Source of the DNA: a virus
Taxonomy: Duplodnaviria; Caudoviricetes
Strand: one strand, 5' to 3'
Virus record (IMG/VR): IMGVR_UViG_3300008261_000064
Coordinates: 1 to 63,673 of that record
Length of the DNA stretch: 63,673 bases
Shown here: positions 16,780 to 34,345 of the stretch, piece after piece
Layout of the letters: every line of letters starts with the position of its first letter
Position numbering within the stretch: the stretch's first letter is position 1
Translations under genes and position numbers: made by a program
Notes under the pieces: model-generated
Told to the model about the DNA's origin: nothing
What the model saw: only the letters and a program-made list of their open reading frames with translations
Databases searched by the model: none

Positions 16780-19700
16780 ATGAAGATAGAAAGAAAAATG
16801 TTCTCCGGCATGATGAATTTGGATGACCCAAATGAAGCAATGCCTAGTAGTAGCCATAAAGAAGCTTTTAATGTTACATTTAGAGGCAATCCTGGAGACA
16901 TGAGGATTGAGAATATAAAGGGGAATCAGTCTGTAGCAAATGCTGGTCTTCAATCGGGAACAAATGTTTGTATAGGCTCATATTATGACGAGCTTAAGCA
17001 AAGAGTTTTCTACTTTGTATATAATTCAAATGGATACGATGCAATATTCGTATACAACACGATAACTAGAGGTATCAGCACTCTTCTGATGTCTAAAATA
17101 GACTCATTGTCTACTGAAGCGTTATTTAACTTTAGCCCAGATTATCCGATTGCATCCGTAAATATCATATACAGGACAGAGGATGATGGGGATATTTTAC
17201 ATTGGACTGACAGAAATAACAGACCAATGAAGCTAAACATTAAAGAAGCTGAGGCGGTTAATAAGACATATAACGGAAACTGGAAGAAGAAATATTTGAC
17301 TGTTGCTAGACCAATGCCTCTCGTATCTGCAATATGTAAGTATGAGAGTGATGCTACAACTACTATAAACAACCTTAGAAGCAAACTATATCAATTCAGA
17401 TATAGGTGGATATATAGAGACTTCAGTAAGTCTACATGGAGTCCTTGGAGTAGATTATTCGCTCCAGATAATGTAGATATTCTTGCTGATGAGATTGACC
17501 CAACAAAAAACAACAGGATATCTATTAAGTACCAAACTGGAGACGATGATGTCTTGAAGGTTGAAATAGCAGCTAGACAGAGTATAGATACCACATTCTC
17601 TGACCCATTCTTAGTAGAAACTGTAGATAAGACTGGATTACCCGATAACAGCGAATACGAATATAAGTTTTATAATACAGAGGCATACCCATACGTAGAT
17701 GTATCTGAATCTAATCAGTTATTTGACTATACACCATTGAAGGCAAATGCCCAAGAACTTCTTAATGGTAATGTACTTATTTATGGAGGTGTTACGGAAG
17801 GTAGGACAGCAAATGTAACTCCATCTGTAACCAAAACGCTTAGTCTTGTACAGAACACAAATACTGCTACAGCGCTTACAATGGCTTCGTACAATAGGTA
17901 TACATTTACCTATTACCCAACTTACAATGTAACAGGAGGAGCTCATTATATAATATTTAGTGGAATTCCAAATGTCGGTGATGTATATAATTTTACATTG
18001 TCATTTAGGAGAGATATTGGAGCTGGGGTAGAATCTACTAGCGTTAACTTTGGAATTACCGTTGCTGCAGGAAGGAACACGCAGCAGTTTTTAGAAGCTG
18101 ACCTTTTAGCTATTGTAGTTGCTGATGCAACTCTTCAGAACTATACACTAGCAAGTTATGTAACGACTCTTCAACTTGTAGAGCCCGGAGAATTTAACGG
18201 TAAAAGGGGTTTGAAGTTTTCTGGAAATCCATCATCTGAGGCATGGGTATTGGATTCATACAGTTTTACTTATACATACGCTGGTGGAGGCGGATTACCC
18301 GCTGACCCAACTGGTGTTAACACTGCATGTTATAAGCATAAGTCTAGGTATACATTTGGAATGTGCTACTTTGATGAATATGGTGTTACTAACGGCGTAA
18401 TTACAAACGATAGTTTTAGGGTTGTAACGCCGGAGATAGATTCAGCAGACTTATCTGGCACTCAATTGACCGTGCCGCTTATAGAGTTTCAAGTAAGCCA
18501 CCAAGCTCCAAGTTGGGCAAAGTATTTCTCATTTGTAAGAACAACTAATCTTACAACATCAGACTTTAAGACAATAGTAACAACTACTACAGGAGTAGAT
18601 TTAGCAAATAAGTATGCATATCTTGATATTACAGAATACCAAGAAAACAAGAATGGATACCCTGCATATTCGTTTGCAAAGGGAGATAGGGTTAGGATTG
18701 TGGGAAGAAAGAATCAGCCAGACTTGTTAACAGATTCTGTATCCAACGACTATCCAATTCTTGCTTTACTGAAGAGTTCAGAAATAACAAGTATGACCAC
18801 ACCTGCTTCTGTTCCAGCAAATAAAATATGGCTCAGAATACCATACGACAACTCCACAATGTCATTTTTTACTTTTGGTAACGCATCTTATTACAACTAC
18901 TACATAGAGGTATACACTCCTGCAATAAACGCTTCTGAAGAAGCACAGCTATTTTATGAGTTTGGAGAAATATATCCAGTTATAGAAAGCGGTGTTAATA
19001 GGTATCATACAGGAATGACCCAAAATCAGACCGCATCCGTTCCGGCTATATATAAATTTATTAGAGGTGATGTATATAGTAGATTGAGGGATTCTGCTTG
19101 GATTATAGATAAGTCTATGTCAGACAAGTACGGCTCAAAAGTAGATGGTAATGGAAGACCATTTGTTGTTGACGAGTACGCAAAAGAGGCATATTATCCA
19201 ACACTTGTGAGGTACTCATTAGAGTATCAATCTGGAACGTCCATAAACCAAACAAATAGGTTCTATGCAGCTAACTTTGACGAATACGATAGGGAGAGAG
19301 GTGACATTCAGAGGCTAAAGACTAGAGGCCGTCAATTGAGAGTATTTCAGAATAGAGCTTGTGGAATGGTTCCAATACTTCAATCTGTAGTACAGACTGC
19401 TGATGGAAGTGGGGTTTTATCTCAAAGCGCAGAGATTATTAATAAGATTCAGTATTACTTAGGCGACTACGGTCTTGGTAATCAATTCTGTTCCCTTACG
19501 TCATCTGCAAACGCAGACTACTTTACAGACCCTGTAAGGGGTGCTCAAGTTAGGCTATCTACTGATGGTTTAACTCCAATAAGTGAATTATATAAAGCTC
19601 ACTTCTATTTAAACCCGTTGATTACAAAGTACAATAAGTCAAGGAATAATATAACTAATCAGGGAAAGGCAAAGATTATATCAATATACGACCAATTTAA

Positions 19701-20262
19701 TGAAGAGGTTGTTACTGTTATGCAGGAAAGTGTGGCAGGTGACGATAAGAGTAATCCGTATACTATAGGATTTAATGAGTTTAGAAATTCATATACTTCA
19801 TTTTATGACTATAGCCCAGAATGGATAATTTGCGCTGAAAACTTAATTATATCTTGGAAAAATGGCATATTATATACACACGACAGCTCTACGTATTGCA
19901 ACTTTTATGGAGTTCAGTACAAGCCGAATGTTACATTGATATTTAATCAATTTGAAAGTGTTAAAAAAAGATATAATACAATAACCATGTTAGCTAATAC
20001 GGCTTGGGTTCCAGAGTCGAATGGAGACATTACTACAAACCTAAATCAGACCTCTAGCCTACAAACAACAGATTTCATAACAAAAGACGATAAGATACAT
20101 GCCGCATTCAAGAGAGACTCTACAAGCACTGGTGGGCTGTATAACGGGAATGTCCTAAAGGGTAATTGGGCTAAATTAAAACTAAAGCCATCAATTGGTA
20201 GTATATTCGTAAATTTGTATTATATAGAACTTAGTATTTTAGAACCTTTTTATAATAGATAA
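16780..20262 (+). CDS. Tail nozzle / stabilisation protein (crAss muzzle, P22 gp10-like)
   Basis: 1160 aa, beta-rich; 'FSGMMNLDD' start, 'PLKANAQELLNGNVLIYG', 'YFTDPVRGAQVRLSTDGLTPISE'. Confidence 0.75.
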   Translation: MKIERKMFSGMMNLDDPNEAMPSSSHKEAFNVTFRGNPGDMRIENIKGNQSVANAGLQSGTNVCIGSYYDELKQRVFYFVYNSNGYDAIFVYNTITRGISTLLMSKIDSLSTEALFNFSPDYPIASVNIIYRTEDDGDILHWTDRNNRPMKLNIKEAEAVNKTYNGNWKKKYLTVARPMPLVSAICKYESDATTTINNLRSKLYQFRYRWIYRDFSKSTWSPWSRLFAPDNVDILADEIDPTKNNRISIKYQTGDDDVLKVEIAARQSIDTTFSDPFLVETVDKTGLPDNSEYEYKFYNTEAYPYVDVSESNQLFDYTPLKANAQELLNGNVLIYGGVTEGRTANVTPSVTKTLSLVQNTNTATALTMASYNRYTFTYYPTYNVTGGAHYIIFSGIPNVGDVYNFTLSFRRDIGAGVESTSVNFGITVAAGRNTQQFLEADLLAIVVADATLQNYTLASYVTTLQLVEPGEFNGKRGLKFSGNPSSEAWVLDSYSFTYTYAGGGGLPADPTGVNTACYKHKSRYTFGMCYFDEYGVTNGVITNDSFRVVTPEIDSADLSGTQLTVPLIEFQVSHQAPSWAKYFSFVRTTNLTTSDFKTIVTTTTGVDLANKYAYLDITEYQENKNGYPAYSFAKGDRVRIVGRKNQPDLLTDSVSNDYPILALLKSSEITSMTTPASVPANKIWLRIPYDNSTMSFFTFGNASYYNYYIEVYTPAINASEEAQLFYEFGEIYPVIESGVNRYHTGMTQNQTASVPAIYKFIRGDVYSRLRDSAWIIDKSMSDKYGSKVDGNGRPFVVDEYAKEAYYPTLVRYSLEYQSGTSINQTNRFYAANFDEYDRERGDIQRLKTRGRQLRVFQNRACGMVPILQSVVQTADGSGVLSQSAEIINKIQYYLGDYGLGNQFCSLTSSANADYFTDPVRGAQVRLSTDGLTPISELYKAHFYLNPLITKYNKSRNNITNQGKAKIISIYDQFNEEVVTVMQESVAGDDKSNPYTIGFNEFRNSYTSFYDYSPEWIICAENLIISWKNGILYTHDSSTYCNFYGVQYKPNVTLIFNQFESVKKRYNTITMLANTAWVPESNGDITTNLNQTSSLQTTDFITKDDKIHAAFKRDSTSTGGLYNGNVLKGNWAKLKLKPSIGSIFVNLYYIELSILEPFYNR

Positions 20263-22280: not shown

Positions 22281-25200
22281 ATGGGATTAAGTAAAAAACC
22301 GAATGCTGAAGGGCCTAAGAAGCCTACCCCTTCAGAGATGGCTCTTATTTCAAGGTTCATGTCTGAAAAAATAGGCAAGCCAAAGCCAACTGTGGTAGAT
22401 AAAAAAGCTGTGCAAGATGCTTTTCAACGGGCGCAAGAAAGAGGTGTTGTTCCAAAAGCAAAGGAGTTGCCTCCTCCAACAACAATGGCTACTCCTAAGC
22501 AAGTATCAGAATCTCAAGCAGCTGAATCAAAAGCACTTATAAGCGGTGATAAAGAAGCAATTGATAATGCTCTTATAGGGTATAATGCAAATAGGGTTCA
22601 GCAGGGTTTTATAGAAGCGGATGCTTATAAGAATACAATAGACAGGATGGCTAAATCGGAAGGTATGCCAACCCCATTGATAGGCTCAGAAAAATATAAC
22701 GAATACAGTAAGCAAATTGAACAGAATAAGGGTAGTTTTTCTCTTGGCGCAGATGAAAGAGGTGAGCCTATTTTAACAGAAAAAATGGGTTTATGGGAGT
22801 CTTTTATGAATGGTTATGACGCATATAATAATGCCATTTTTTATGGAAAATATTATCAAGAAAACGACCCTCTAAAAAACATTAGATTACTTGAGGCTAA
22901 AAGAAGAGGCCTGATTTCTGATGAAAGATTTACAGGTGATTTTTTTACGGGTTCGAGAAGCAGGAAGGAATCAAGATTTGCAAGGACACCAAATCAATTT
23001 ATGGCAACTCTTGGTGGATTACAAAAACCAATTACAGATGGTGCTGTTATTGGATTAATGACAGCTGCATATAATTATGCAACTGGTGGAACTGCAGCAA
23101 TAGCACAAACGGCATCTGGTATTGGGATGTTTGGTACTGTTGGTCAAGATATGGTTAATTCAAGATATGGTTCTTCTCTTGAAGAAAACTATTTTTTAGC
23201 AAGGCAGCAAAACATGAGCGAAAAAGATGCTTATGAAAAGGCCGTTTCTGTAGCAAAACAGGCAGCAGTGTATGAAACAGCTGCTCAGATTCCATTCTCA
23301 TTTTCGGGGGCTATTTCAGGTATTGCAGGAATGAAAGGGCTACCTTCCTCTTCTATGAAGCTTGCAGAGAAAGCACCTGCGATAGAAAAATCAATAAAGA
23401 CATTTGCAAAAGGATTTGCTGAAAACGCAAAGGCTGGACTAGGGCTTTCTGGTATTATGGCTCTTGGCAGAACAGGCACAGATATAAAATCAGAACAGGA
23501 AGGAATAAATATTGAAAATAATATAGAAAGAGCAATTACAGAAGGCGGACATATGATGGCTATGCACATGGGCATACATGCCCTAACATCTGCCCCTGCT
23601 GCACTTTCTGCTGTTCCAAAAAGCTTTAAATCATTTGCTAAAAAACTGTTGTCAACAGATGAAAGCACTGTGATGAGTTTTATAGATGTTATGGAATCAG
23701 CTGGGCTATATAATCCAGGAACAAAAGATAAGATTAAGAAAGAAATAAAGTCATATAAGAATGCAGAAAATAAAACTCCAAAATTTGGAGGGGATGAGGA
23801 AAGAAGGACTATAGCTTCAGGACTTATAGAAAAAAGAACAAATCTTGAAAAAGAGATGTCTGGAATAGATAAAGAATTCCAAGCCCCTATTCAAGTTCAG
23901 ATAGACGAAATAAATACAAGGCTTAGAAAGCTTAACGAAGTAGAAAACCCATTTGAGGTAGAGATTACTGATGAGGGTAAACCATTTACAACTAAAACTC
24001 AAGAAGATGCCACTAAAATCAGCACAGGGCAAGTCCAAGAAAGCACTACAGAAAGCGGTGTCAGCCAATATCAGGGAGTTGAAGAAGTCAAACCTGTCGA
24101 AGTCGCCAAGCAAACAGAGGTCGCAACAGCAGATATTGGCGATAGCCCTGTCATCAGCGAGGCGCAACAAGTAAAACTTTCTGATAAGATTAGAAGACTT
24201 AAAATTGATGAGTCTGTTCTTACCGGTGGAGATAAAGGTGTTGCTCAATCTAATATTGCAGGTCTCCCAATAGGGATATATAATGCATCTGTTGAGGCTA
24301 TTGCTCTTAGTGTAGAAGCGGGAGAAACAATTGCCGCTGCAATACAAAAACAGATAAAATCACTTAGGGAAGGAGGATATGAGGTTGACGAAGCTAGGTT
24401 CACCAAGAATGTGAATATTATAGAAAAGGTAAATACTGATAAGGCAAGGTTGAGGTCTGAGGCAGAAATGGAGGGTATTAATAGTGCAGACTATGCTGAA
24501 CTTCAGAGAATAGCTCTTGAGAAGTATAATGAGAATGAGATTTACAGAGACCCTGTTGAAATGGGCAAGATTCTCAGAAGAAAACTTTCTGAAAAAGGTG
24601 TAGATACATCAAAAATATCTGATGATGTATTTGAGACAATAGGCTATTCTATACTTGATGAAGAAGCTCCATTCCTTCCTGGAACTGCAAAGAAAATCCC
24701 TCTGCCTACAGAATCATATTCTAAAGAGCAAGTACTCACTAATCCAAGGGAAGTATTTAAGGCTATATATAGAGCTGCTGAAACACAAGCTAAAGAAGCC
24801 AAACAAAGACTATCTATAGCAACAAAGGATATAGCTGATGCTATAGCTGAATCTGTTTATAAATCAAAAGGTTTAAGATTAAATCCAAAGTCAATAACTA
24901 GGGCTATAAAAATGTTTGTTAATGACAAGATGGATACGGAAACAGCTTCTATAGCCTTTCAAGAAAATATAAACGAAATTAGAAGGGCAGCAGAGAATTC
25001 TATTAGATTTGGTCAAGTAAAAAAGTTAATATCTAATATTAGAAATTCATCAAAGAGTAGTACATACGGAACAATAGCAACTAGGGAAACTACAAGAGAT
25101 ATGGACTTTATGGCCCCTTCTAAAATAAGGGACTATGATAAAAATGGAAATGTACTTGATACAGATACATCTCTAAATAAGTATGAAGCTCTTCTTGAAG

Positions 25201-28200
25201 ATTATAGGAAATCAATAAGCGGAGAATCTCCGGATGCAAAACAAGCAAGAGTTAATCTTTCAGATTTCCTTGCAGAACAAAGAGATTTATATGAAAACGC
25301 TCAAATTAAAAAGAGAGAAGCAAAAAAAGCTGAATACGAGGCTAAATACGATAAACTATTAGCTGAAGGTAAGATTTCCATAGATGAAGATACAAGCAGT
25401 CCAAATTATGGTAAACCAGCAGTATCAAAAGAAGAGTTTGTTGAGGGGATGCTTAATCCAAATAAAGAAAAAACACAAAATACGGAAGACCTTATAGGAG
25501 AGGCTGAAGCCGAAGAAGCCCCGTCCGTATCAGAACAGATAAAATCAAGGCAAGAGGTTCTGTTGGAATCTATACAAGATGGTGAGATTGAAACAGAGCT
25601 TATTCAAGATGCTAAAGAACTTGCTGGTATAGATGTAAATAGAGTTTCTCCTAATAACCTAAAAAGATTATCAAACATCATAGAGGATATTCTAAATGGA
25701 GAAGAGCCATCTTGGGTGGGTCAAATGAGAACAGACGTAGAGTCTAATAAGCTAATGGAAAATACGACTAATTTAAACGTAGACATTAGGCCAATAACAA
25801 AGATTCAAAAAGCTGGTATAGTAAATTATGTAAAAAGTCTTATAAATCAAGATTGGGTAAAAGGTAATGGATTCGATACGCTTGGCATTACAAATATGTT
25901 AAGAGTATTAACATCTACAGATAAGGCAACATCCTTACTTAGGTCAATGACAATAGGACCATTTGAAAGGGCTGTAAGAGAAGTTAACACTATATCCAAA
26001 GCTTTTACAAAAGACCTTTCAGATGTATTTACTGGAAAGTCTGCAACAATAAATGGACAGCAGGTTAGATTCACTTCTCCTAAACTTATAGAAAAAAATT
26101 CTTATAGGATAGGCCTGGCATCTGCTCTTGAACAAGTAGAGGACTTTAATCTTAGCCTTCAAAATATGATTGAAAGTTTAAAATATTACTCAAAAGTAAA
26201 TGCAGACGAAGGTGGTTATCATAATTATTTAAGCAATACTAAGGAGGCATTAACAAGCCTTGGTTTAGTAGATGGTTTTGTTTATAATTCCGATGGTTCA
26301 ATATCAGACATTGTAATATCAAGCGATGCGTCTTTGCCTAAGATTCTTGGAAATCTTAATGATAGAGAGAGCGCTGCATTGTCTGTATCAAAGCAAGGAT
26401 TTAAGGGCTTATCACTAGATGTTAGAAAAGCTGCAAGAGATTACTATGGCGTAAATCTAGATATTTCATCACCGGAATATCTACCAAGGGTTTTGCTTGG
26501 TAATCAAAAGGACATACTGTTAGACTTTGATAATCCAGTGTTCAGTACATTGCCAGCCCATATAAAAAAGATGAGGGCTAGTTCTACGTTTGAGAGAACA
26601 CCCAATCTTAATGCAAAGGGAGGATACGGTAACTATATACTTTACGACTTTGATTTCTTCAGAAGGATTCCTGAAAAGTATCATGAAACAGCTACAACTG
26701 CATATACATCAGAATCTACATCTGTGATGTCGAAGTATTTGAATAGTAAAGAGTTTGGAAACTTTATTCAAGGAAAGTTTAATGCAGACCCTAAATATTT
26801 TATTACAAACAAAAAAGAGTTCATAAAACATATTAACGAATATGTTAATATGGAAAGAAAGCCGTATGTTGTAACAAAAGAGATTGCGCAGCAGAGAAGC
26901 AGATTAATGAGGTTTGTGTATGGCAAATTATTGAATACATGGGATGCGGCAGCTAAACAATATATACCAGGAACTATAACCTTGATGACAGAAGCTGGTG
27001 GTGTGCCATTCTTAAAAGCGAATGACCTTTATTACAAATCTCTTAAAACTAGTAAAGGGGCGGATTTGATAAATAAGTTTCTGTTTCAAACTAGCCAAGT
27101 AAGTAGAGCAACATCCGGAGTTGAGGCGTTAAGGGCAACAGGAGCAAATATTGATAATAATTCTTTCATTAGAGGGTTAAAGGATGTTTCTGATGTGCTT
27201 GATAATAATATGCTTACAGGAAGTGCTTCTCTTGCATTTGGAGATAATATGGTAACAATACAGGGACTTCTTGTTGGATATATGAAAGGCTTAAAGCTAA
27301 GTGGTAAGCTAAAAAACTATTCAGAGTTTAATCTTGAATCTGAACTTAATAATGGGTTAGACCAATATGCGTTATCTTATGCAGAGAACTTCTTGTCATT
27401 CATAAATAATGAATCAAATTTTGCAGGCAAGGCAAAGATATTTAGGGAGGGTGATTTTAGCACATTGAGGATGCTTCAGTCTTTTAACCATAATCAGACT
27501 ACAAACTTTCTGATTGACTTGGGAAGATTAACAGATTCATTTAGGGGACAGGGGAATTCGGACGCAAGAAATGAGGCTATAAAGAGAATGATTCAATTTG
27601 CATCTAACCAAATATTATTTGGAACAACAAGTTATTTACTCGGAAATCTATCGTATAATACTGCTAAAACAGTTATGGATGCTTATGGCGTTCAATTTAG
27701 CGGCGATAAGTCAACAGAAGAAGCAGAAAAGGATAAAACAGCTACTAGGATAGGAGTTGGTCTTTTTACAGATGCTATGCTTGGTAGACAGAACATTGTA
27801 TTTGCTCAGGGTGTTAAGGCAGGCTTGAAGGGTAGTATAGATTATTTTCAAACCAGGAAAAGAAAAGAGATGGAGGCCATGGGTTATGACGCTTCTAAGA
27901 CTTTATCAGCAAAGGGCTACTCTCCTATATTTAAGAATGATTATATAGGCGCATTTGGAACATTTGTTCAAGATGCCGAAAGGTATTATAATATGGCGAG
28001 AAGAGAAGAGGATTATACATCTACTTTAGAAGAATCTCAAAAGAATTCGCTTAGGGCTGCAGCTTATATTAAAGGAGCATCATTGTTGTTCCCATCAAGG
28101 GACTTAGAAAGACTTGCTTTTAGTATTGAAAAGAATATATTATACAAAAAGGTTCAGCAATTAGACTATGATGCATATATGCTTTCTATGTCAAGAAATG

Positions 28201-28793
28201 ATGGGAATGCTTTCTTCCCGCTACAGGTAAAAGAGGCAAACGATTATCTTAACATGAGAAGAGCTCAAGACCCAAGATTTAATGTATACCTAGAAACTAA
28301 GGTTGGCCCAAGGGGTGAGACAATGGTAAATAGGGAGACTATAAAAGATATGGCTAAAAGTAAATTCCCTAATACAGACTTTAATAATGTTGTATCTAGT
28401 ATATTTGACAATAAGGTTAAGGATAAGGTTCTTGTTCTAAATAATAGATATCCAATTGTATATCCAAGTGGAACAACAATACCATTGAGCCAACTGAATA
28501 AGGTAAATAGTCCTGCAAATAAAGAGATTAAGTTTATGTTGGAAAATGGACTTCTTACAGCAGAAGAGTATGCGTTCTCTATAGGTTTTGATAAAAACGG
28601 CAGGGTAAGGACAGACATAAGTGAAGATGCATTAAATGAAGAGGTTGTTAAAAGATATGCGGAGGCTATATCATACCCGGCTGTTAAAAGGACTATTGAG
28701 GGCGGAACAGACCAGGTTCAGTACGATGAAATATGGAAAGCATTTAAGAAATTCTCATCAGAAAGGTACGTGCTGAAACAGAGGGCGAAATAG
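22281..28793 (+). CDS. Giant internal virion / ejection protein (2170 aa)
   Basis: Size, helical composition, G/A-rich hydrophobic patches; third of three ejection-type genes. Confidence 0.6.
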   Translation: MGLSKKPNAEGPKKPTPSEMALISRFMSEKIGKPKPTVVDKKAVQDAFQRAQERGVVPKAKELPPPTTMATPKQVSESQAAESKALISGDKEAIDNALIGYNANRVQQGFIEADAYKNTIDRMAKSEGMPTPLIGSEKYNEYSKQIEQNKGSFSLGADERGEPILTEKMGLWESFMNGYDAYNNAIFYGKYYQENDPLKNIRLLEAKRRGLISDERFTGDFFTGSRSRKESRFARTPNQFMATLGGLQKPITDGAVIGLMTAAYNYATGGTAAIAQTASGIGMFGTVGQDMVNSRYGSSLEENYFLARQQNMSEKDAYEKAVSVAKQAAVYETAAQIPFSFSGAISGIAGMKGLPSSSMKLAEKAPAIEKSIKTFAKGFAENAKAGLGLSGIMALGRTGTDIKSEQEGINIENNIERAITEGGHMMAMHMGIHALTSAPAALSAVPKSFKSFAKKLLSTDESTVMSFIDVMESAGLYNPGTKDKIKKEIKSYKNAENKTPKFGGDEERRTIASGLIEKRTNLEKEMSGIDKEFQAPIQVQIDEINTRLRKLNEVENPFEVEITDEGKPFTTKTQEDATKISTGQVQESTTESGVSQYQGVEEVKPVEVAKQTEVATADIGDSPVISEAQQVKLSDKIRRLKIDESVLTGGDKGVAQSNIAGLPIGIYNASVEAIALSVEAGETIAAAIQKQIKSLREGGYEVDEARFTKNVNIIEKVNTDKARLRSEAEMEGINSADYAELQRIALEKYNENEIYRDPVEMGKILRRKLSEKGVDTSKISDDVFETIGYSILDEEAPFLPGTAKKIPLPTESYSKEQVLTNPREVFKAIYRAAETQAKEAKQRLSIATKDIADAIAESVYKSKGLRLNPKSITRAIKMFVNDKMDTETASIAFQENINEIRRAAENSIRFGQVKKLISNIRNSSKSSTYGTIATRETTRDMDFMAPSKIRDYDKNGNVLDTDTSLNKYEALLEDYRKSISGESPDAKQARVNLSDFLAEQRDLYENAQIKKREAKKAEYEAKYDKLLAEGKISIDEDTSSPNYGKPAVSKEEFVEGMLNPNKEKTQNTEDLIGEAEAEEAPSVSEQIKSRQEVLLESIQDGEIETELIQDAKELAGIDVNRVSPNNLKRLSNIIEDILNGEEPSWVGQMRTDVESNKLMENTTNLNVDIRPITKIQKAGIVNYVKSLINQDWVKGNGFDTLGITNMLRVLTSTDKATSLLRSMTIGPFERAVREVNTISKAFTKDLSDVFTGKSATINGQQVRFTSPKLIEKNSYRIGLASALEQVEDFNLSLQNMIESLKYYSKVNADEGGYHNYLSNTKEALTSLGLVDGFVYNSDGSISDIVISSDASLPKILGNLNDRESAALSVSKQGFKGLSLDVRKAARDYYGVNLDISSPEYLPRVLLGNQKDILLDFDNPVFSTLPAHIKKMRASSTFERTPNLNAKGGYGNYILYDFDFFRRIPEKYHETATTAYTSESTSVMSKYLNSKEFGNFIQGKFNADPKYFITNKKEFIKHINEYVNMERKPYVVTKEIAQQRSRLMRFVYGKLLNTWDAAAKQYIPGTITLMTEAGGVPFLKANDLYYKSLKTSKGADLINKFLFQTSQVSRATSGVEALRATGANIDNNSFIRGLKDVSDVLDNNMLTGSASLAFGDNMVTIQGLLVGYMKGLKLSGKLKNYSEFNLESELNNGLDQYALSYAENFLSFINNESNFAGKAKIFREGDFSTLRMLQSFNHNQTTNFLIDLGRLTDSFRGQGNSDARNEAIKRMIQFASNQILFGTTSYLLGNLSYNTAKTVMDAYGVQFSGDKSTEEAEKDKTATRIGVGLFTDAMLGRQNIVFAQGVKAGLKGSIDYFQTRKRKEMEAMGYDASKTLSAKGYSPIFKNDYIGAFGTFVQDAERYYNMARREEDYTSTLEESQKNSLRAAAYIKGASLLFPSRDLERLAFSIEKNILYKKVQQLDYDAYMLSMSRNDGNAFFPLQVKEANDYLNMRRAQDPRFNVYLETKVGPRGETMVNRETIKDMAKSKFPNTDFNNVVSSIFDNKVKDKVLVLNNRYPIVYPSGTTIPLSQLNKVNSPANKEIKFMLENGLLTAEEYAFSIGFDKNGRVRTDISEDALNEEVVKRYAEAISYPAVKRTIEGGTDQVQYDEIWKAFKKFSSERYVLKQRAK
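24007..24174 (+). CDS. Nested out-of-frame small basic protein (55 aa)
   Basis: MPLKSAQGKSKKALQKAVSANIRELKKS...QQILAIALSSARRNK; A-rich start context. Confidence 0.7.
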   Translation: MPLKSAQGKSKKALQKAVSANIRELKKSNLSKSPSKQRSQQQILAIALSSARRNK

Positions 28794-28827: not shown

Positions 28828-29382
28828 ATGCCTTTTTTAGCAGCATTCACGGTAACTCAAGGAGCAGACTGTTCTCAGTTCTCCGTAAATGACACCTCTG
28901 ACTATACTGTTGAGGGTACAGGAACGTTTACGGCTAGAAAACTTACTATACAGAAATCAGACGGTAGCTTTCTTAAAGTTGGGAATACCACATATAACGA
29001 ATATGTATGGCCTTTTGGAGCAGGTAATACACTTACCCTAAGTGGTGTAGACCAGTATCTTAAGCCGTACATAGATGTAGACTACTCATTTCAGATAACG
29101 CTCGCTCTAACGCCTACATCGGCACAGCCGGGCAGTATATACACCAAGACTAACATAGCTGTTCTTGTGTGCTACACCATGAGTGGATTCTATACATTTG
29201 CATATAAGATGGCACTGAATCCTTCCCTTGAGAAAGACTACAAGTTTGTAAAGGACGTAATGCGGTTGTGGATAGAGCAAGAATCGGCCAAGAAATCTGG
29301 CCTTGACGGAGACTTCCAATCATCTCAATCGTGCCTTGACAGAGCAAAATATATCATTGACAACCTAACAGTGGGTTACTAA
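28828..29382 (+). CDS. Virion structural protein (tail/fibre base)
   Basis: Beta-rich N-terminus, helical C-terminus; first gene of the fibre operon. Confidence 0.5.
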
Positions 29383-29383
29383 T

Positions 29384-32300
29384 ATGGGATACACTCTACT
29401 ACAGATAGGTCAGATTCTCGCCAAGGCTGACAAGACCATGTATAAGATAGGTAATGTAGCCTACGATGACATGTTCTCGGAATTGGATGAGAAGTTGGAT
29501 TATGAGAGGGATATAATTTATATCTACAAGAAGGCTGTAGAGTATGCTGACGACTACTATGTAGGAACAGTAAAACTAGATACAGTAGTAGAGAGATTAG
29601 CCTCTAAGGTGGCTATTTACGATTATGGAAGCACTAACCCAATTTATTCTGACGCTACTGTTATAGTCAGTACAATTCCTAATGGAGCTGTATTGAATGA
29701 CCTGTACGATGTAACGATATCCAACCTACAGAACAATCAGATTCTTAAGTATAACGCATCTCTAGGGCAATGGGTAAATACGGGTACCAATGCGGCTATA
29801 AGGTCTACACAGTCCTTTACGGCTACTTTAAACCAAACTATATTTACAACTACAAGTCCATTTGAGCCTGCATTCTTGGATGTATTCTTGAATGGTGTTA
29901 GGCTAAACGGCTCAAGCTATACTACATTTGGTGATTATCAGATAACACTCCTTGACGGATGTTTGGCAGATGACATATTAGATGTAATTATATATGACCC
30001 AGTAACAGACATTTTGGATATTTCTGGGTATGTCAAGACTGATAGGACTATTACAATCAATGGTGTTACGCAAGACTTGAGTGCTAACAGGACATGGACT
30101 GTTGGCACTGGAGATATGAGTACTTCAGTGTATGATACTGATGCGGATGGTATTGTAGACGATGCTGAGAAGATAACTATCATAGCTAGGAACAGCACAG
30201 GTGCTACCATCCACAAGGGAAAGATAGTTTACCTACAAGGCTCTACAGGCAACAGGCCTAATATGTTGTTGGCTCAAGCCAACTCTGAGGCTACGTCTAG
30301 TAAGACATTTGGTGTGGTTGTTGAGGATATTGCTAACAACGCTGACGGCCATGTAGCTGCTATAGGCACGCTGCACGACTTGGATACTAGGTCAAATGCT
30401 ACTCATCCGTTCACTACAGATACGCTTGTAGACGGAGACTTGGTTTGGCTGTCTGCCACCAATCCGGGATACATAACTAGGACTCCGCCTACACAGCCCA
30501 ACCATACGGTATTTATAGGTGTTGTGGCAAGAACTACTCCTAGTTTTGGTAGGATTATCTATAAGATTCAAAATGGATTTGAGCTACAGGAGCTTCATAA
30601 TGTTCTGATAAGTTCTCTTGCAAACAATGACATACTTTATTATGATTCTGCAACTAGCTTGTGGAAGAATACTAACAAAAGTTCTTGGCTTGGGGGAACA
30701 TCTTCTCAGTTCTTGAAGGGTGATGGAAGCTTTGACAATAATACATATTTAACCCCATCTGTTGCTGCTTCTACATATGTTTCACTAACAGGAAGCTATG
30801 CAAATCCTTCTTGGATTACATCGTTGGATTGGGTTAAGATTTCTGGAGCTCCGGCGTTCTTGACTACGGAGACTGACCCTGTATTTAATGCTCATCCTGC
30901 GTACTACGTTACCAATACTAAGCTGTCACAGTGGGATGCTGCATATACTTGGGTAAATGCATTCCCCCCACAAACTGGAAATGGAGGTAAGTTCCTTACT
31001 ACAAATGGCGGAACTTTATCATGGGCTGATGTTGTTAGTGGTGTGTCTTCGTTCAATACAAGGACAGGAGCTGTAACACTTAACTCTTCAGATGTTACTA
31101 CAGCTTTAGGATATACCCCTGTAACCAATGCCAGAACACTCACCATCAACGGAACTACTTATGACTTGAGTGCTGATAGGAGCTGGACTATTCTAACAGG
31201 AGGTACTGTTACAAGTGTGGATTTATCTGCTCCTACGGGATTCGTAGTTACTGGCAATCCTATCACATCAAGTGGTACTCTTGCTTTATCATTTGCGAGT
31301 GGATACTCATTACCTACCACTGTAAAGCAGGGTAATTGGGATGATGCCTATACTTTCACAAGTGCCTTCCCTTCGCAAACGGGGAACAATGGCAAGTACC
31401 TAACGACTGATGGCAGTACACTTTCTTGGGGTACTGTATCAACTGCGAATATTTATAATAGCGATGGTACGCTGACGGGAAATAGGATTGTATCTCTTGA
31501 CTCTAAGCAACTTGTTTATAGAGATAGTAGTGCTAATCTCACAAACTATACATATTCTGTTGGTGTACCAACTGGAGTACCATCTTCATCTTGGCCATCA
31601 TCTGTTATCTATGAAGGGCAGTATCTAATTAGTTCAACAAGTAGTGCAGAACCTTTTAATACAAGACTGTGGGGTAGAAACCAAAGTGCAAGTATAAAAC
31701 AGCTTTGGGTCAACCAAGTTTATGCTGATATAACAGGAGAGTCAACAGGTGCTCCATATATTTACAATCAGACATTTAATACGAGAAGAGGTTCTCAATT
31801 AGATACATCTACTGCAAGCGGATGGATGGAAGGATTGAGAAACATAATTGGACACTTTTACGCAGGTGCACAATCAACCACCACTCAAATTAATACAAGC
31901 AGTTTGGTAGCTTATAGAAACAGCGTACTGAACTATGTTGGAAATATTACAAACACTTATGGAGTATTAAATGAGTTGCTTCAAAGCACTGCTGCATCTA
32001 CACAAAACTCTGCAATAACAAATTATTACGGGTTTTATAGTTCTGCAAATGTTGGAACAGCAAGTGGACCAACTGCATCAATTAGTAATTATTATGGGCT
32101 ATATCTTAACACACTAACTGTTGGAGCTACTGGAACAATAACAAATCGTTGGGGTGTTTATGCACCTGATTCTTCTATGAAGCATCACCTTAATGGTAAT
32201 GTTATTGTAGGAGGTTCTACAGACGCAGGTTATAAACTTGATGTGCAGGGGACTGCGAGGGTTACGGGGAATACAACAATTAATGGCAATCTCACATTAA

Positions 32301-34345
32301 GCAATTCAAATCCCTTATCATTAACTAATGCATCTGCTTACTTTAGCATAGGTTCATACTTTTTTGGTGCAAGTAGTTCAATAATTGGAGCGAATGCATC
32401 ATTTTCGGATTGGGCAGTTAGAGTTGGTAGTGGTGGTTTGTTGATTGCAAATGGAACAAATAACAACCATCTTTTAAAAGAAGGTTTAGCGTTGTTTACT
32501 GATAACGCTGCAAACACAAGCATTACTGGTTCTGCATCAGCAGTTTTACAAGCAAACTCCACCACAAAAGGCTTCCTCCCTCCTCGCATGACCACTGCCC
32601 AGAGGGATTTAATCGGCACACCTGCTACGGGGTTGAGTATATATAACACCACTCTCAATACTAACGACTTCTATAACGGCACTGCATGGGTTAGCCAAGC
32701 GGCAGGGAATATATATACTGCTGATGGTACTCTGACGGGGAATAGGATTGTGACTGCTAATGGAAATAGTTTAACTTTTTTAGGTGGTATTGAACCAAAC
32801 GCAAATGAGCAAACTGGATTAATTCTTCAAACTTCAGCAACAAATAAAAGTGTACTTGAGTTAAGTCTTGTTAATACTTTTACAACTACTGGCAAGACTT
32901 GGAGATTAAGGTCAATGGGTGGAGGAGATTTTGATATAGTAACTGGTACAACCTCAAGAGCATTTTATATATCAAGCAGTGGTAATGTTGCTATAAATAA
33001 CGCTTCAGCAATTAGTGGTGCAAGGTTTAGTGTGAATGGTAGCATTGCAACTAATTCTGGAATACAAATTCAAGGAGATTTAGTCAGTCCATTAGGTGCA
33101 GGAATTGAATTGAATTATGGTGGTGGTATTTCTTATTTTACAAGTTATAACAGAACTTCAAGTGCGTGGTTGCCAATCGTAATCAGAGGTTCACAAATTG
33201 ACTTTACAACCAACGGAAGCAATACATCAAGATTCACCTCCGCAGGTCGCTTATTGTTGGGCACAACTACTGAGGCAACATATTTACTTGATGTCAACGG
33301 CACTGCGAGGGTGAGTGGGAGAATGACTACATCAATAATTGATACAGTTGGAGCTACTCTGTATTTAACTGATGGAGGTGCAACTAATAATAGATATGGT
33401 TTAGGAATATCAGCAGCAACATTAAATATATTTGGAGGTAATAATGTTCTTTTAGGGGTATTAAGAGACCAATCTAATATGACAACATCAAATGCAAATA
33501 TTTGGTTGTCTAATGGATTGACACAAGTAAATACTCTTTTTGATGCACCATCTTATAAATTTATTTATGCTCCAGTTTCTATTTCATCTGCAATAACTGC
33601 ATCTTATGGTGCAGGTAGATTTCACAATACATATAATGCAAGCGGAACAACTTATACTCAATATCCAGTATTATCATTAACAAGACTTGGAGAGATTGGA
33701 GTATCTTATGATTTATCTGCATCATTTGGGATACGTAGACGAATTGTCGGAGGTAATACACCAAAAACAACCCTTGATTTAAATGTTGGCGAAACTGCAA
33801 TCAATGGTTATCCTGATGTTACTATCATGACAATAAGTGCAGAAGGTGTTGGAGTTAATAATACAACCCCAAGCACATCAGCAATGCTTGATGTTGCATC
33901 CACCACCAAAGGCTTCCTCCCTCCACGCATGACCGAAACGCAGAAGAATGCTATAAGCACTCCTGCGACTGGTTTGGTTATCTATCAGACAGACGGCACT
34001 GAGGGATTGTATGAAAGGACATCAAGTGCTTGGAGAATACTTTACAATACCCCAAGCGGAGGCTCAGGCATTACTCGTTCTGTTAGTAATATTTCTACAA
34101 CTCAAACGGCAGGAGCAACTGCATCTACTGATTATGTATATCTGATAAGTGGTACAACTACCCTTACCCTTCCTACGGCAGTGGGTAATACCAACAGATA
34201 CACTTTGAAGAATGTAGGTGCAAACACAGTAACAATCAATACAACCTCATCACAAACCATTGACGGAAGCACATCTTTAACAATGGCGGTACAATACACT
34301 GCTTTGGATGTTATCTCTGATGGTACAAATTGGAATATAATTTAA
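29384..34345 (+). CDS. Long modular tail fibre (1653 aa)
   Basis: G/T/S-rich; repeated '[11 protein letters not shown]', '[19 protein letters not shown]', '[12 protein letters not shown]', '[11 protein letters not shown]'. Confidence 0.85.

What the first reader, a model, noticed from the sequence alone, without database searches (positions are those of the whole stretch)
24007..24174. Small basic gene overprinted inside the 2170-aa virion protein
Seen: an alternate frame encodes MPLKSAQGKSKKALQKAVSANIRELKKSNLSKSPSKQRSQQQILAIALSSARRNK after an A-rich start context (AACTAAAACTCAAGAAG-ATG). The host frame there reads as an acidic E/Q/T/V low-complexity linker. From recall, this matches a widespread free-standing small phage protein pattern (MPLK.GKS...S.NI.EL.....QA.AIALS.AR). 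Inference: a whole gene was captured within the giant gene, and both frames are under selection.
Basis: partly seen in the sequence, partly recalled or inferred. Interest (0 to 1): 0.75.

Follow-up and report, generated by a model that had tools for sequence, protein, structure and literature searches.

The report
Old small gene nested in giant phage gene
A 55-residue, very basic phage protein gene sits in another reading frame inside a 2170-residue phage gene, and comparison with related phages shows that both readings are maintained by selection.

Summary
ORF 24007-24174 (+1 frame of giant ORF 22281-28793) encodes the quoted 55-aa peptide. It has real homologues: phrog_2423 E=7.5e-5, 30 cluster representatives at E<=1e-3 among 1.84 billion (best 1.2e-9), and 53 viral loci.

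In 23 of those 53 loci the gene is nested, always in the same relative frame, in giant ORFs of 1535-3817 codons that have diverged almost beyond recognition. In 30 loci it is not nested. In 8 of these it lies between two genes in the same gene order as the window.

Within the overlap, small-frame pN/pS is 0.42 and giant-frame pN/pS is 1.55. Giant-frame synonymous sites are frozen, with a same-codon fraction of 0.96 against 0.54±0.05 elsewhere. The chance that the giant frame stays open is <=0.004 per lineage.

I read it as an older, free-standing small-protein gene over which a giant cargo ("polyvalent"-type) gene reads as a disordered acidic linker. The small protein would start at its own ATG behind an A-rich, Shine-Dalgarno-less leader. 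Its function, probably a virion-internal nucleic-acid-binding protein, is only inferred. No expression data exist.

The parts
24007..24174 (+). Nested small gene: 55 codons plus TAA, in the +1 frame of the giant ORF. It encodes a basic (pI 12) two-helix protein of the phrog_2423 / DUF6496-like family.
   Evidence: homologues. (pN/pS 0.42). (AlphaFold2 pLDDT 91.4, helices 11-29 and 40-52). (only copy in the 63,673-bp record).
23987..24006 (+). Probable translation-initiation region of the nested gene: A-rich, no Shine-Dalgarno motif, embedded in giant-gene coding sequence.
   Evidence: 11 of 20 bases are A in the window. In 18 nested loci the count is 10-15 of 20, and A at -13, -3 and -2 is present in 18/18. 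Passages of PMC6847099 report A at -3, -6, -12 and -13 as positive determinants in Flavobacterium johnsoniae.
22281..28793 (+). Giant host ORF (2170 codons), probably a virion cargo / polyvalent-type protein.
   Evidence: Homologues in L001 (71% identity) and L002/4/5/7/16 (about 40%). No Pfam, PHROG or PDB sequence hit of its own. Relatives carry ART-PolyVal and LPD23 domains.
24006..24173 (+). Giant-frame reading of the overlap: a 56-codon acidic linker predicted to be disordered.
   Evidence: pI 4.05; giant residues 561-630 have pLDDT <50 and no secondary structure, between helical flanks (shallow 7-row alignment, mean pLDDT 56); domains of about 150-190 aa are inserted directly after it in L002, L007 and L016.
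16780..20262 (+). 1160-codon ORF with a crAss muzzle-like C-terminal domain. It anchors the gene-order comparison.
   Evidence: PF25729 E=9.7e-6, 26.4 bits against a cut-off of 27; phrog_14478 E=4.6e-70.
28828..29382 (+). Conserved 184-codon gene directly downstream ('d1'), used as a synteny and tree marker.
   Evidence: homologues follow the giant, or gene B, in 18 rows including the window; tree.
29384..34345 (+). 1653-codon ORF downstream, homologous to the large gene after d1 in loci with a free-standing small gene.
   Evidence: L006, L027 and L029 d3 against the window ORF, E from 1e-39 to 5e-10.

Best explanation
ORF 24007-24174 is a genuine protein-coding gene. It belongs to an old family of small, basic, two-helix phage proteins (phrog_2423, distantly DUF6496-like), and it lies wholly inside a giant late gene in the +1 frame.

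Shown: the small frame evolves under purifying selection. Its ATG and stop are kept in every nested relative. It is the only copy in the genome. The giant frame is kept stop-free across it against strong odds, while its amino acids there drift freely.

Inferred: the giant protein is made as one chain whose residues 576-631 are a disordered acidic linker, a by-product of reading the small gene out of frame. The small protein is made separately, by internal initiation at ATG 24007 on the same late mRNA, using an A-rich Shine-Dalgarno-less leader of the kind used in Bacteroidota.

The arrangement relates to a gene order A-small-B in related phages. Either the flanking genes fused across the small gene, or a giant gene split around it. 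On either route the small frame belongs to the older family, and the overlapping stretch of the giant frame is linker-like and unconstrained. I therefore read that stretch as the younger reading, which is the reverse of classical overprinting.

Function (weakest step, about 35%): a virion-internal, nucleic-acid-binding or cargo-associated protein. This rests on its charge and on its place among ejection and cargo genes in several phage types. The confidence given below is for the gene being real and separately expressed, not for this function.
For: Homology: phrog_2423 E=7.5e-5. Word-indexed search: 5 proteins of 50-55 aa at 62-65% identity, E from 4e-7 to 1e-5, among 6 candidates. Exhaustive search: 30 representatives at E<=1e-3. 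Viral contigs: 53 loci.

Nested state: 23/53 loci carry the gene inside ORFs of 1535-3817 codons, always with the giant in frame +2 relative to the small gene. Where the giant is complete, the gene sits at 23-39% of its length. The giants fall into clades that share only about 40-50 blastp bits with the window's clade, while the peptide stays 50-87% identical.

Selection: pooled pN/pS is 0.42 (small frame), 1.55 (giant frame) and 1.22 (third frame). Close pairs give 0.05-0.17 in the small frame. The same-codon fraction among identical giant residues is 0.96-0.97 in the overlap, against 0.54±0.05 (maximum 0.67) in 425 other windows. With only pairs below 60% identity the figures are 0.93-0.94 against 0.47±0.09.

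Stops: 21/21 distinct nested sequences have the giant frame open, against 2/22 free-standing ones. Simulation gives P from 0.0000 to 0.0043, and 0.0003 for the window. The stops in free-standing relatives are mostly TAA, so recoding does not explain them.

Copy number: one copy in the window record, in 5/5 other nested records, and in 54/54 sequences by six-frame HMM search.

Start context. No SD motifs were seen upstream of the 19 window gene starts printed (judged by eye). TATATTTG occurs 15 times against 6.4 expected.

Fold: pLDDT 91.4. Linker disorder.

Synteny. The d1 tree separates 9 nested from 6 free rows by one branch with support 100/99.

Context in other phages: the gene lies directly after an internal virion protein and a protein with a tail-lysozyme domain in L042.
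Against: There is no expression evidence of any kind. No listed run holding the stretch is on record as RNA, and no proteomics was available.

The Pfam match is below threshold (16.2 bits against 24), and only 7/44 relatives reach E<=0.01.

pN/pS was computed with a simple Nei-Gojobori count on 50-64 codons in overlapping frames, from non-independent pairs, so the ratios are descriptive.

The window's own giant has no detectable similarity to the A and B genes of the loci with a free-standing small gene (hhalign probabilities <=1%). The fusion/fission link therefore rests on gene order and on L027_B matching the C-terminal parts of clade C giants and L010 (E from 1e-14 to 1e-16).

Fold searches gave no informative match, so the function is a guess. 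The host phylum is inferred, not shown.
Confidence: 0.85

Rival explanations
1. A programmed +1 frameshift, not separate initiation. Ribosomes translating the giant slip into the small frame just before 24007 and make a truncated N-terminal fragment of about 575 aa ending in the basic module.
For: The module does occur as a C-terminal extension of unrelated N-terminal parts in other phages: P0011, P0013, P0014, P0015 and P0017, 135-205 aa, and the L015 type. In the window the small frame is open for 15 codons before the ATG.
Against: The ATG is invariant in 21/21 distinct nested sequences and aligns with the first residue of free-standing homologues. In most nested loci a small-frame stop lies only 4-6 codons upstream of it. 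No shared slippery motif stood out upstream, but I ran no formal search. In the fused L015 type an AGGAGG lies 5 nt before the internal ATG, which points to separate initiation there too.
Confidence: 0.05
2. The nested ORF is a dead relic or a by-product. Its conservation would reflect constraint on the giant protein or on an RNA/DNA signal, and no small protein would be made.
For: No expression data exist. The giant-frame peptide also shows recurring motifs (NAT.E, EGG[VI]S.YQG) across clades.
Against: Substitutions fall on the small frame's synonymous positions (pN/pS 0.42 against 1.55). The same peptide is conserved where no giant frame exists: 30/53 loci, whose +2 frame holds up to 8 stops. 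Start and stop are kept in lineages whose giants have otherwise diverged beyond blastp detection. It is the only copy per genome.
Confidence: 0.04
3. The 2170-codon ORF is not one gene. The real genes would be A, small and B, and the open giant frame across the small gene would be accidental or an assembly error.
For: Related phages do have separate A and B genes flanking a free-standing small gene.
Against: The probability of an open +2 frame given the peptide and codon usage is 0.0003 for the window and <=0.0043 in 10 lineages tested, yet 21/21 are open. There is no stop anywhere in 6.5 kb. The sequence is identical in contigs of 4 of 4 runs laid.
Confidence: 0.03

Closest known systems
Embedded same-strand phage genes such as lambda Rz1 inside Rz, or phiX174 E inside D (recalled from textbooks; not retrieved here)
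   Same: A small gene lies wholly inside a larger one, on the same strand, in the +1 frame, with its own start codon.
   Different: In those cases the embedded gene is usually taken to be the younger, lineage-restricted reading. Here the embedded gene belongs to a widespread family that elsewhere stands alone, and the overlapping part of the large gene is the unconstrained, linker-like reading. The host signals are also of the Shine-Dalgarno-less type.
phrog_2423 / Pfam DUF6496 (PF20106), small proteins of unknown function
   Same: Length of about 50 aa, the N-terminal MPLK motif, the ...SANIR.L... helix, the ...Q.[IV]AIA[LI]S.A[RK] helix and a basic tail. phrog_2423 E=7.5e-5. The nearest ESM Atlas clusters are viral 54-58-aa hypothetical proteins, one of them with DUF6496 on 17% of members.
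   Different: The window peptide scores 16.2 bits against the DUF6496 cut-off of 24. No member has a known function, and I found no paper naming DUF6496.
Polyvalent proteins of phages (Iyer et al. 2017, PMC5512222; abstract and passages read) and crassvirus cargo proteins (PMC10172136; abstract and passages read)
   Same: The host gene is a giant late gene next to virion genes. Relatives that hold the same nested gene carry ART-PolyVal (L023, 58.5 bits against 31.2) and LPD23 (L035, 47.2 bits against 27). In PhicrAss001 the genes listed as cargo and RNA-polymerase-associated (gp45-gp50, up to 277 kDa) follow the tail genes. Here the giant follows a muzzle-like gene.
   Different: The window's own giant has no domain hit. 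Neither paper's searched text mentions an overlapping gene (0 occurrences of 'overlapping' in PMC5512222).

Membership tests
phrog_2423 (small phage protein, unknown function) | Significant match to the family profile over most of its length | tested here: met
   E=7.5e-5, 23.7 bits, residues 1-55 on profile positions 1-41 of 52. The genome-wide search gives the same place, E=1.1e-4. PHROGs has no curated cut-off.
Pfam DUF6496 (PF20106) | Score at or above the gathering threshold (24 bits) | tested here: not met
   16.2 bits, E=0.014. Of 44 relatives, 7 match at E<=0.01, best 1.1e-5. At most a distant relation.
Functional embedded (overlapping) gene | Open nested frame with conserved start and stop in relatives | tested here: met
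   21/21 distinct nested sequences.
Functional embedded (overlapping) gene | Purifying selection in the nested frame and suppressed synonymous change in the host frame | tested here: met
   pN/pS 0.42 against 1.55. Same-codon fraction 0.96 against 0.54±0.05.
Functional embedded (overlapping) gene | Both products detected | not testable with these tools
   No run holding the stretch is on record as RNA, and no proteomics is available.
Polyvalent protein (host gene) | Several disparate effector domains in one giant chain, encoded among virion genes | tested here: inconclusive
   The window giant has no Pfam hit. Relatives: ART-PolyVal in L023 and LPD23 in L035 above cut-off; LPD23 in L033 and LPD38 in L018 below cut-off. 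A sub-threshold ART-PolyVal match lies in the L002 and L016 insert.
Crassvirales-like phage | Muzzle protein with the crAss C-terminal domain | tested here: inconclusive
   PF25729 26.4 bits against a cut-off of 27, E=9.7e-6. Other hallmark genes were not tested.

The most novel reading that the evidence does not exclude
The DUF6496-like module is a portable loading or anchoring device for capsid cargo. It occurs free, as a C-terminal tag on variable proteins, or nested. In the nested form the same DNA encodes a +13 basic hairpin and a net -7 acidic linker, which pair electrostatically so that the small protein is loaded with, or neutralises, the giant cargo protein in a set ratio. The nesting arose by fusion of the two neighbours across an older gene, which would be 'reverse overprinting'.
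Probability: 0.12. Interest if true: 0.85.

Novelty: new variant of a known kind. Interest (0 to 1): 0.68.

Why it matters
Embedded genes are routinely discarded by gene callers. This one is the only copy of a conserved phage protein in at least 6 viral records, so current annotation of this whole phage group would lack it.

It is also a clean natural example in which the age of the two readings can be told apart. The small nested frame belongs to the older, widespread family. The giant gene's overlapping stretch behaves as a young, unconstrained linker that must only avoid stops.

It further offers a test case for internal initiation in Shine-Dalgarno-less (Bacteroidota-type) translation, and a lead on a family of unknown function that sits among ejection and cargo genes in several phage types.

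Tried and rejected
- Annotated phage records (INPHARED): searches with the giant DNA, the giant protein, the window peptide and two free-standing homologues found nothing. Short basic queries and the low-complexity filter limit these searches.
- PDB by sequence: nothing at E<=1 for the giant, its 6-row profile or a clade C giant. The 1653-aa neighbour gave a single weak hit (8vcc_A, hemagglutinin, E=0.16).
- Fold searches of the small-protein model against PDB and BFVD: no hit at E<=0.001.
- NCBIfam: nothing for 10 proteins.
- Search for longer fused forms: 43 candidates, none at E<=0.01. This is weak evidence, because one search did find C-terminal fusions of 135-205 aa.
- Representative bacterial and archaeal genomes: 13 pattern matches, none confirmed.
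- hhalign between the window clade's N- and C-terminal parts and the A and B genes of free-standing loci: probabilities <=1%.
- Relic second copies of the small gene: none.
- Stop-codon recoding as the cause of the 'free-standing' state: rejected, because the stops are mostly TAA.
- Antisense ORF 23817-24347: it is open in 20/21 nested loci, but it is in codon register with the giant frame and varies in length, so I take it as a by-product.
- Complex prediction of the small protein with giant residues 380-800: the tool's verdict was no answer (score 0.00). This is neither for nor against binding.
- Sequencing runs: no RNA holder listed.
- Literature: 0 papers for 'DUF6496' and 0 for 'crAss-like' plus 'overprinting'. 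The 'embedded gene / bacteriophage / alternative reading frame / internal virion protein' search listed 3 papers, none on this case by title and abstract. In the 'Crassvirales / nested gene / overlapping genes / out-of-frame' search (276 papers held at least 2 of the 4 terms), none of the 10 listed held 'Crassvirales'.
- Supplementary files of papers were not consulted. Virion mass-spectrometry tables of crassvirus papers might list small proteins that I could not see.
Full report
**What is there.** The window is a complete-looking virus record of 63,673 bp with direct terminal repeats. It holds terminase, portal and virion genes on the + strand. A 2170-codon ORF runs from 22281 to 28793. The small protein has pI 12.0 and a net charge of +13. 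The giant-frame reading of the same bases is an acidic stretch with pI 4.05. Contigs from 4 of 4 public runs laid (4 studies, all flagged as possible sources) carry 23800-24400 without a single difference.

**The peptide has real relatives.** Pfam gives only a sub-threshold DUF6496 match (16.2 bits against 24). PHROGs gives phrog_2423 at E=7.5e-5. The word-indexed search returned 5 proteins of 50-55 aa at 62-65% identity, E from 4e-7 to 1e-5, among 6 candidates. The exhaustive search of 1.84 billion representatives returned 30 proteins at E<=1e-3, best 1.2e-9 and none at E<=1e-10. A scan of viral contigs returned 53 loci out of 86 pattern matches. The pattern scan of representative prokaryote genomes found none. 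With a 44-row alignment, AlphaFold2 predicts an extended N-terminus and two helices (11-29 and 40-52) at mean pLDDT 91.4. Fold searches were uninformative.

**Nested in some phages, free-standing in others.**
- In 23 of the 53 loci the gene lies inside an ORF of 1535-3817 codons, some cut by contig ends. The giant is always in frame +2 relative to the small gene, as in the window.
- Where the giant is complete, the nested gene sits at 23-39% of its length.
- The giants form separate clades. One holds the window, L001 (71% identity) and L002/4/5/7/16 (about 40%). The others are L008/9/11/19/20, L021-26/37, and the isolated L010, L018, L033 and L035/36. Between the window's clade and the others blastp finds only about 40-80 bits, while the nested peptide stays 50-87% identical.
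- In the other 30 loci there is no long overlapping ORF.
- Eight of these (L006, L014, L027-L031, L034) share the window's gene order: a large muzzle-sized gene, then A, small, B, a gene of about 180 codons, and a gene of 1400-1700 codons. The two genes downstream of B are homologous to window 28828-29382 (E from 1e-24 to 1e-34) and to window 29384-34345.
- L027_B matches the C-terminal parts of clade C giants and L010 (E from 1e-14 to 1e-16).
- The window clade's own halves show no detectable similarity to those A and B genes.
- I built a tree of the 180-codon neighbour from 15 rows. I left out L028, L031 and L036 as identical or near-identical duplicates. Clades B and C and L033 had no hit, and L005's contig ends too early. 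One branch (support 100/99) separates 9 nested from 6 free rows. One change of state is therefore enough, but the tree is unrooted and the direction is open.

**Selection.**
- Across 21 distinct nested sequences the pooled pN/pS is 0.42 in the small frame, 1.55 in the giant frame and 1.22 in the unused frame. For close pairs the small frame gives 0.05-0.17 and the giant frame 1.7-27 where it can be computed.
- In a codon alignment of the 7 giants of the window's clade, I measured how often identical residues also use the identical codon. The fraction is 0.54±0.05 (maximum 0.67) in 425 windows outside the overlap and 0.96-0.97 inside it. Using only the 10 pairs below 60% identity gives 0.47±0.09 against 0.93-0.94.
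- The giant frame is stop-free in 21/21 distinct nested sequences but in only 2/22 distinct free-standing ones. Those in related phages hold 4-8 stops, mostly TAA.
- Resampling synonymous codons with each phage's own usage leaves the giant frame open in 0.00-0.43% of trials, and in 0.03% for the window.
- So the small frame is constrained at the protein level, and the giant frame is constrained only to remain open.
- The recurring giant-frame motifs (NAT.E, EGGVS.YQG) are the shadow of MPLK and KAVSANIREL.

**Only copy.** The window record has one match to the family. Each of 5 other nested-type records has one, and two of these are rated at least 90% complete. A six-frame HMM search found one copy in each of 54 sequences.

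**How it is probably expressed.**
- I saw no Shine-Dalgarno motif upstream of the 19 window gene starts printed (judged by eye). Several of these genes are preceded by TATATTTG, which occurs 15 times against 6.4 expected (1 of 100 shuffles reached 15). From recall, this resembles the Bacteroidota -7 promoter element.
- The 20 bases before the nested ATG hold 10-15 A in 18 nested loci. That places them in the top 0.4-10% of internal ATGs of each giant in 17 loci and at 23% in one. A at -13, -3 and -2 is present in all 18.
- Passages of PMC6847099 report A at -3, -6, -12 and -13 as positive determinants of initiation in Flavobacterium johnsoniae.
- No TATATTTG lies just upstream of the nested gene. 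I therefore infer translation from the same late transcript by internal initiation. This step is inferred, not shown.

**The host gene.** The window's giant has no Pfam, PHROG or PDB sequence match. The upstream 1160-codon ORF has a crAss muzzle C-terminal domain just under threshold. In PhicrAss001 the cargo and RNA-polymerase-associated proteins gp45-gp50 are virion-borne (PMC10172136, passages). Giants in other clades that hold the same nested gene carry ART-PolyVal (L023, 58.5 bits) and LPD23 (L035, 47.2 bits) above threshold, and LPD23 (L033) and LPD38 (L018) below it. These are domains of 'polyvalent proteins', which are predicted to be packaged and injected (PMC5512222, abstract and passages). 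An AlphaFold2 model of giant residues 380-800 (7-row alignment, mean pLDDT 56) puts residues 561-630 at pLDDT <50 without secondary structure, between helical flanks. In L002, L007 and L016 a domain of 150-190 aa is inserted right after the nested stop. The overlap therefore coincides with a flexible linker that tolerates insertions.

**Function of the small protein.** It is unknown in the literature I could search. Its charge, its two-helix fold and its position suggest a virion-internal, nucleic-acid-binding or cargo-associated role. It lies among cargo genes here, directly after an internal virion protein and a lysozyme-domain protein in L042, and next to virion or tail genes in L003, L015 and L044. 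I hold this at about 35%. In one lineage the module follows variable N-terminal parts in frame, which hints at a portable tag.

**Comparison and verdict.** Same-strand embedded genes are a known kind in phages (Rz/Rz1 and phiX174, from recall). This case differs in three ways. The embedded gene is the widespread, older family. The overlapping host stretch is the unconstrained reading. And the state is kept across a deep, fast-evolving group of freshwater phages. I found no paper describing it. I rate it a new variant of a known kind, well supported by comparative evidence and lacking any expression data.

Noticed in passing
L002:10165-10719, L016:10162-10716, L007:10165-10719: A domain of about 150-190 aa is inserted in the giant ORF directly after the nested gene's stop. 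The L002 and L016 inserts match ART-PolyVal (PF18760) weakly (E=0.0044 and 0.026, below cut-off). The L007 insert is different.
   Followed up: partly
L015:9758-10159; proteins P0011, P0013, P0014, P0015, P0017: In one lineage the small module is in frame behind unrelated N-terminal parts of 80-150 aa, with AGGAGG 5 nt before the internal ATG. Long and short forms may both be made.
   Followed up: partly
window 23817-24347 (- strand): This 176-codon antisense ORF covers the nested gene. The same antisense frame is open across the overlap in 20 of 21 nested loci. It is in codon register with the giant frame and varies in length, so it is probably a by-product of the linker's codon make-up.
   Followed up: partly
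window 243, 11154, 13712, 28805 and 11 other sites: TATATTTG occurs 15 times against 6.4 expected, and several copies lie just upstream of gene starts. From recall it resembles the Bacteroidota -7 promoter element and, with the lack of SD motifs, points to a Bacteroidota host.
   Followed up: partly
L027:5629-9972 compared with L006:5781-8288 and L029:6540-8654: The 1447-codon gene upstream of the free-standing small gene in L027 equals two or three separate genes in L006 and L029 (hhalign 99.9% for the first 585 residues). Fusion and fission of these cargo genes is therefore common in the group.
   Followed up: partly
window 23000-25000: The stretch is held at half of its sampled words or more by 16 listed DNA runs labelled lake-water or freshwater metagenome. 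The 20 runs that hold any part come from 13 studies, so the phage appears widespread in fresh water.
   Followed up: no
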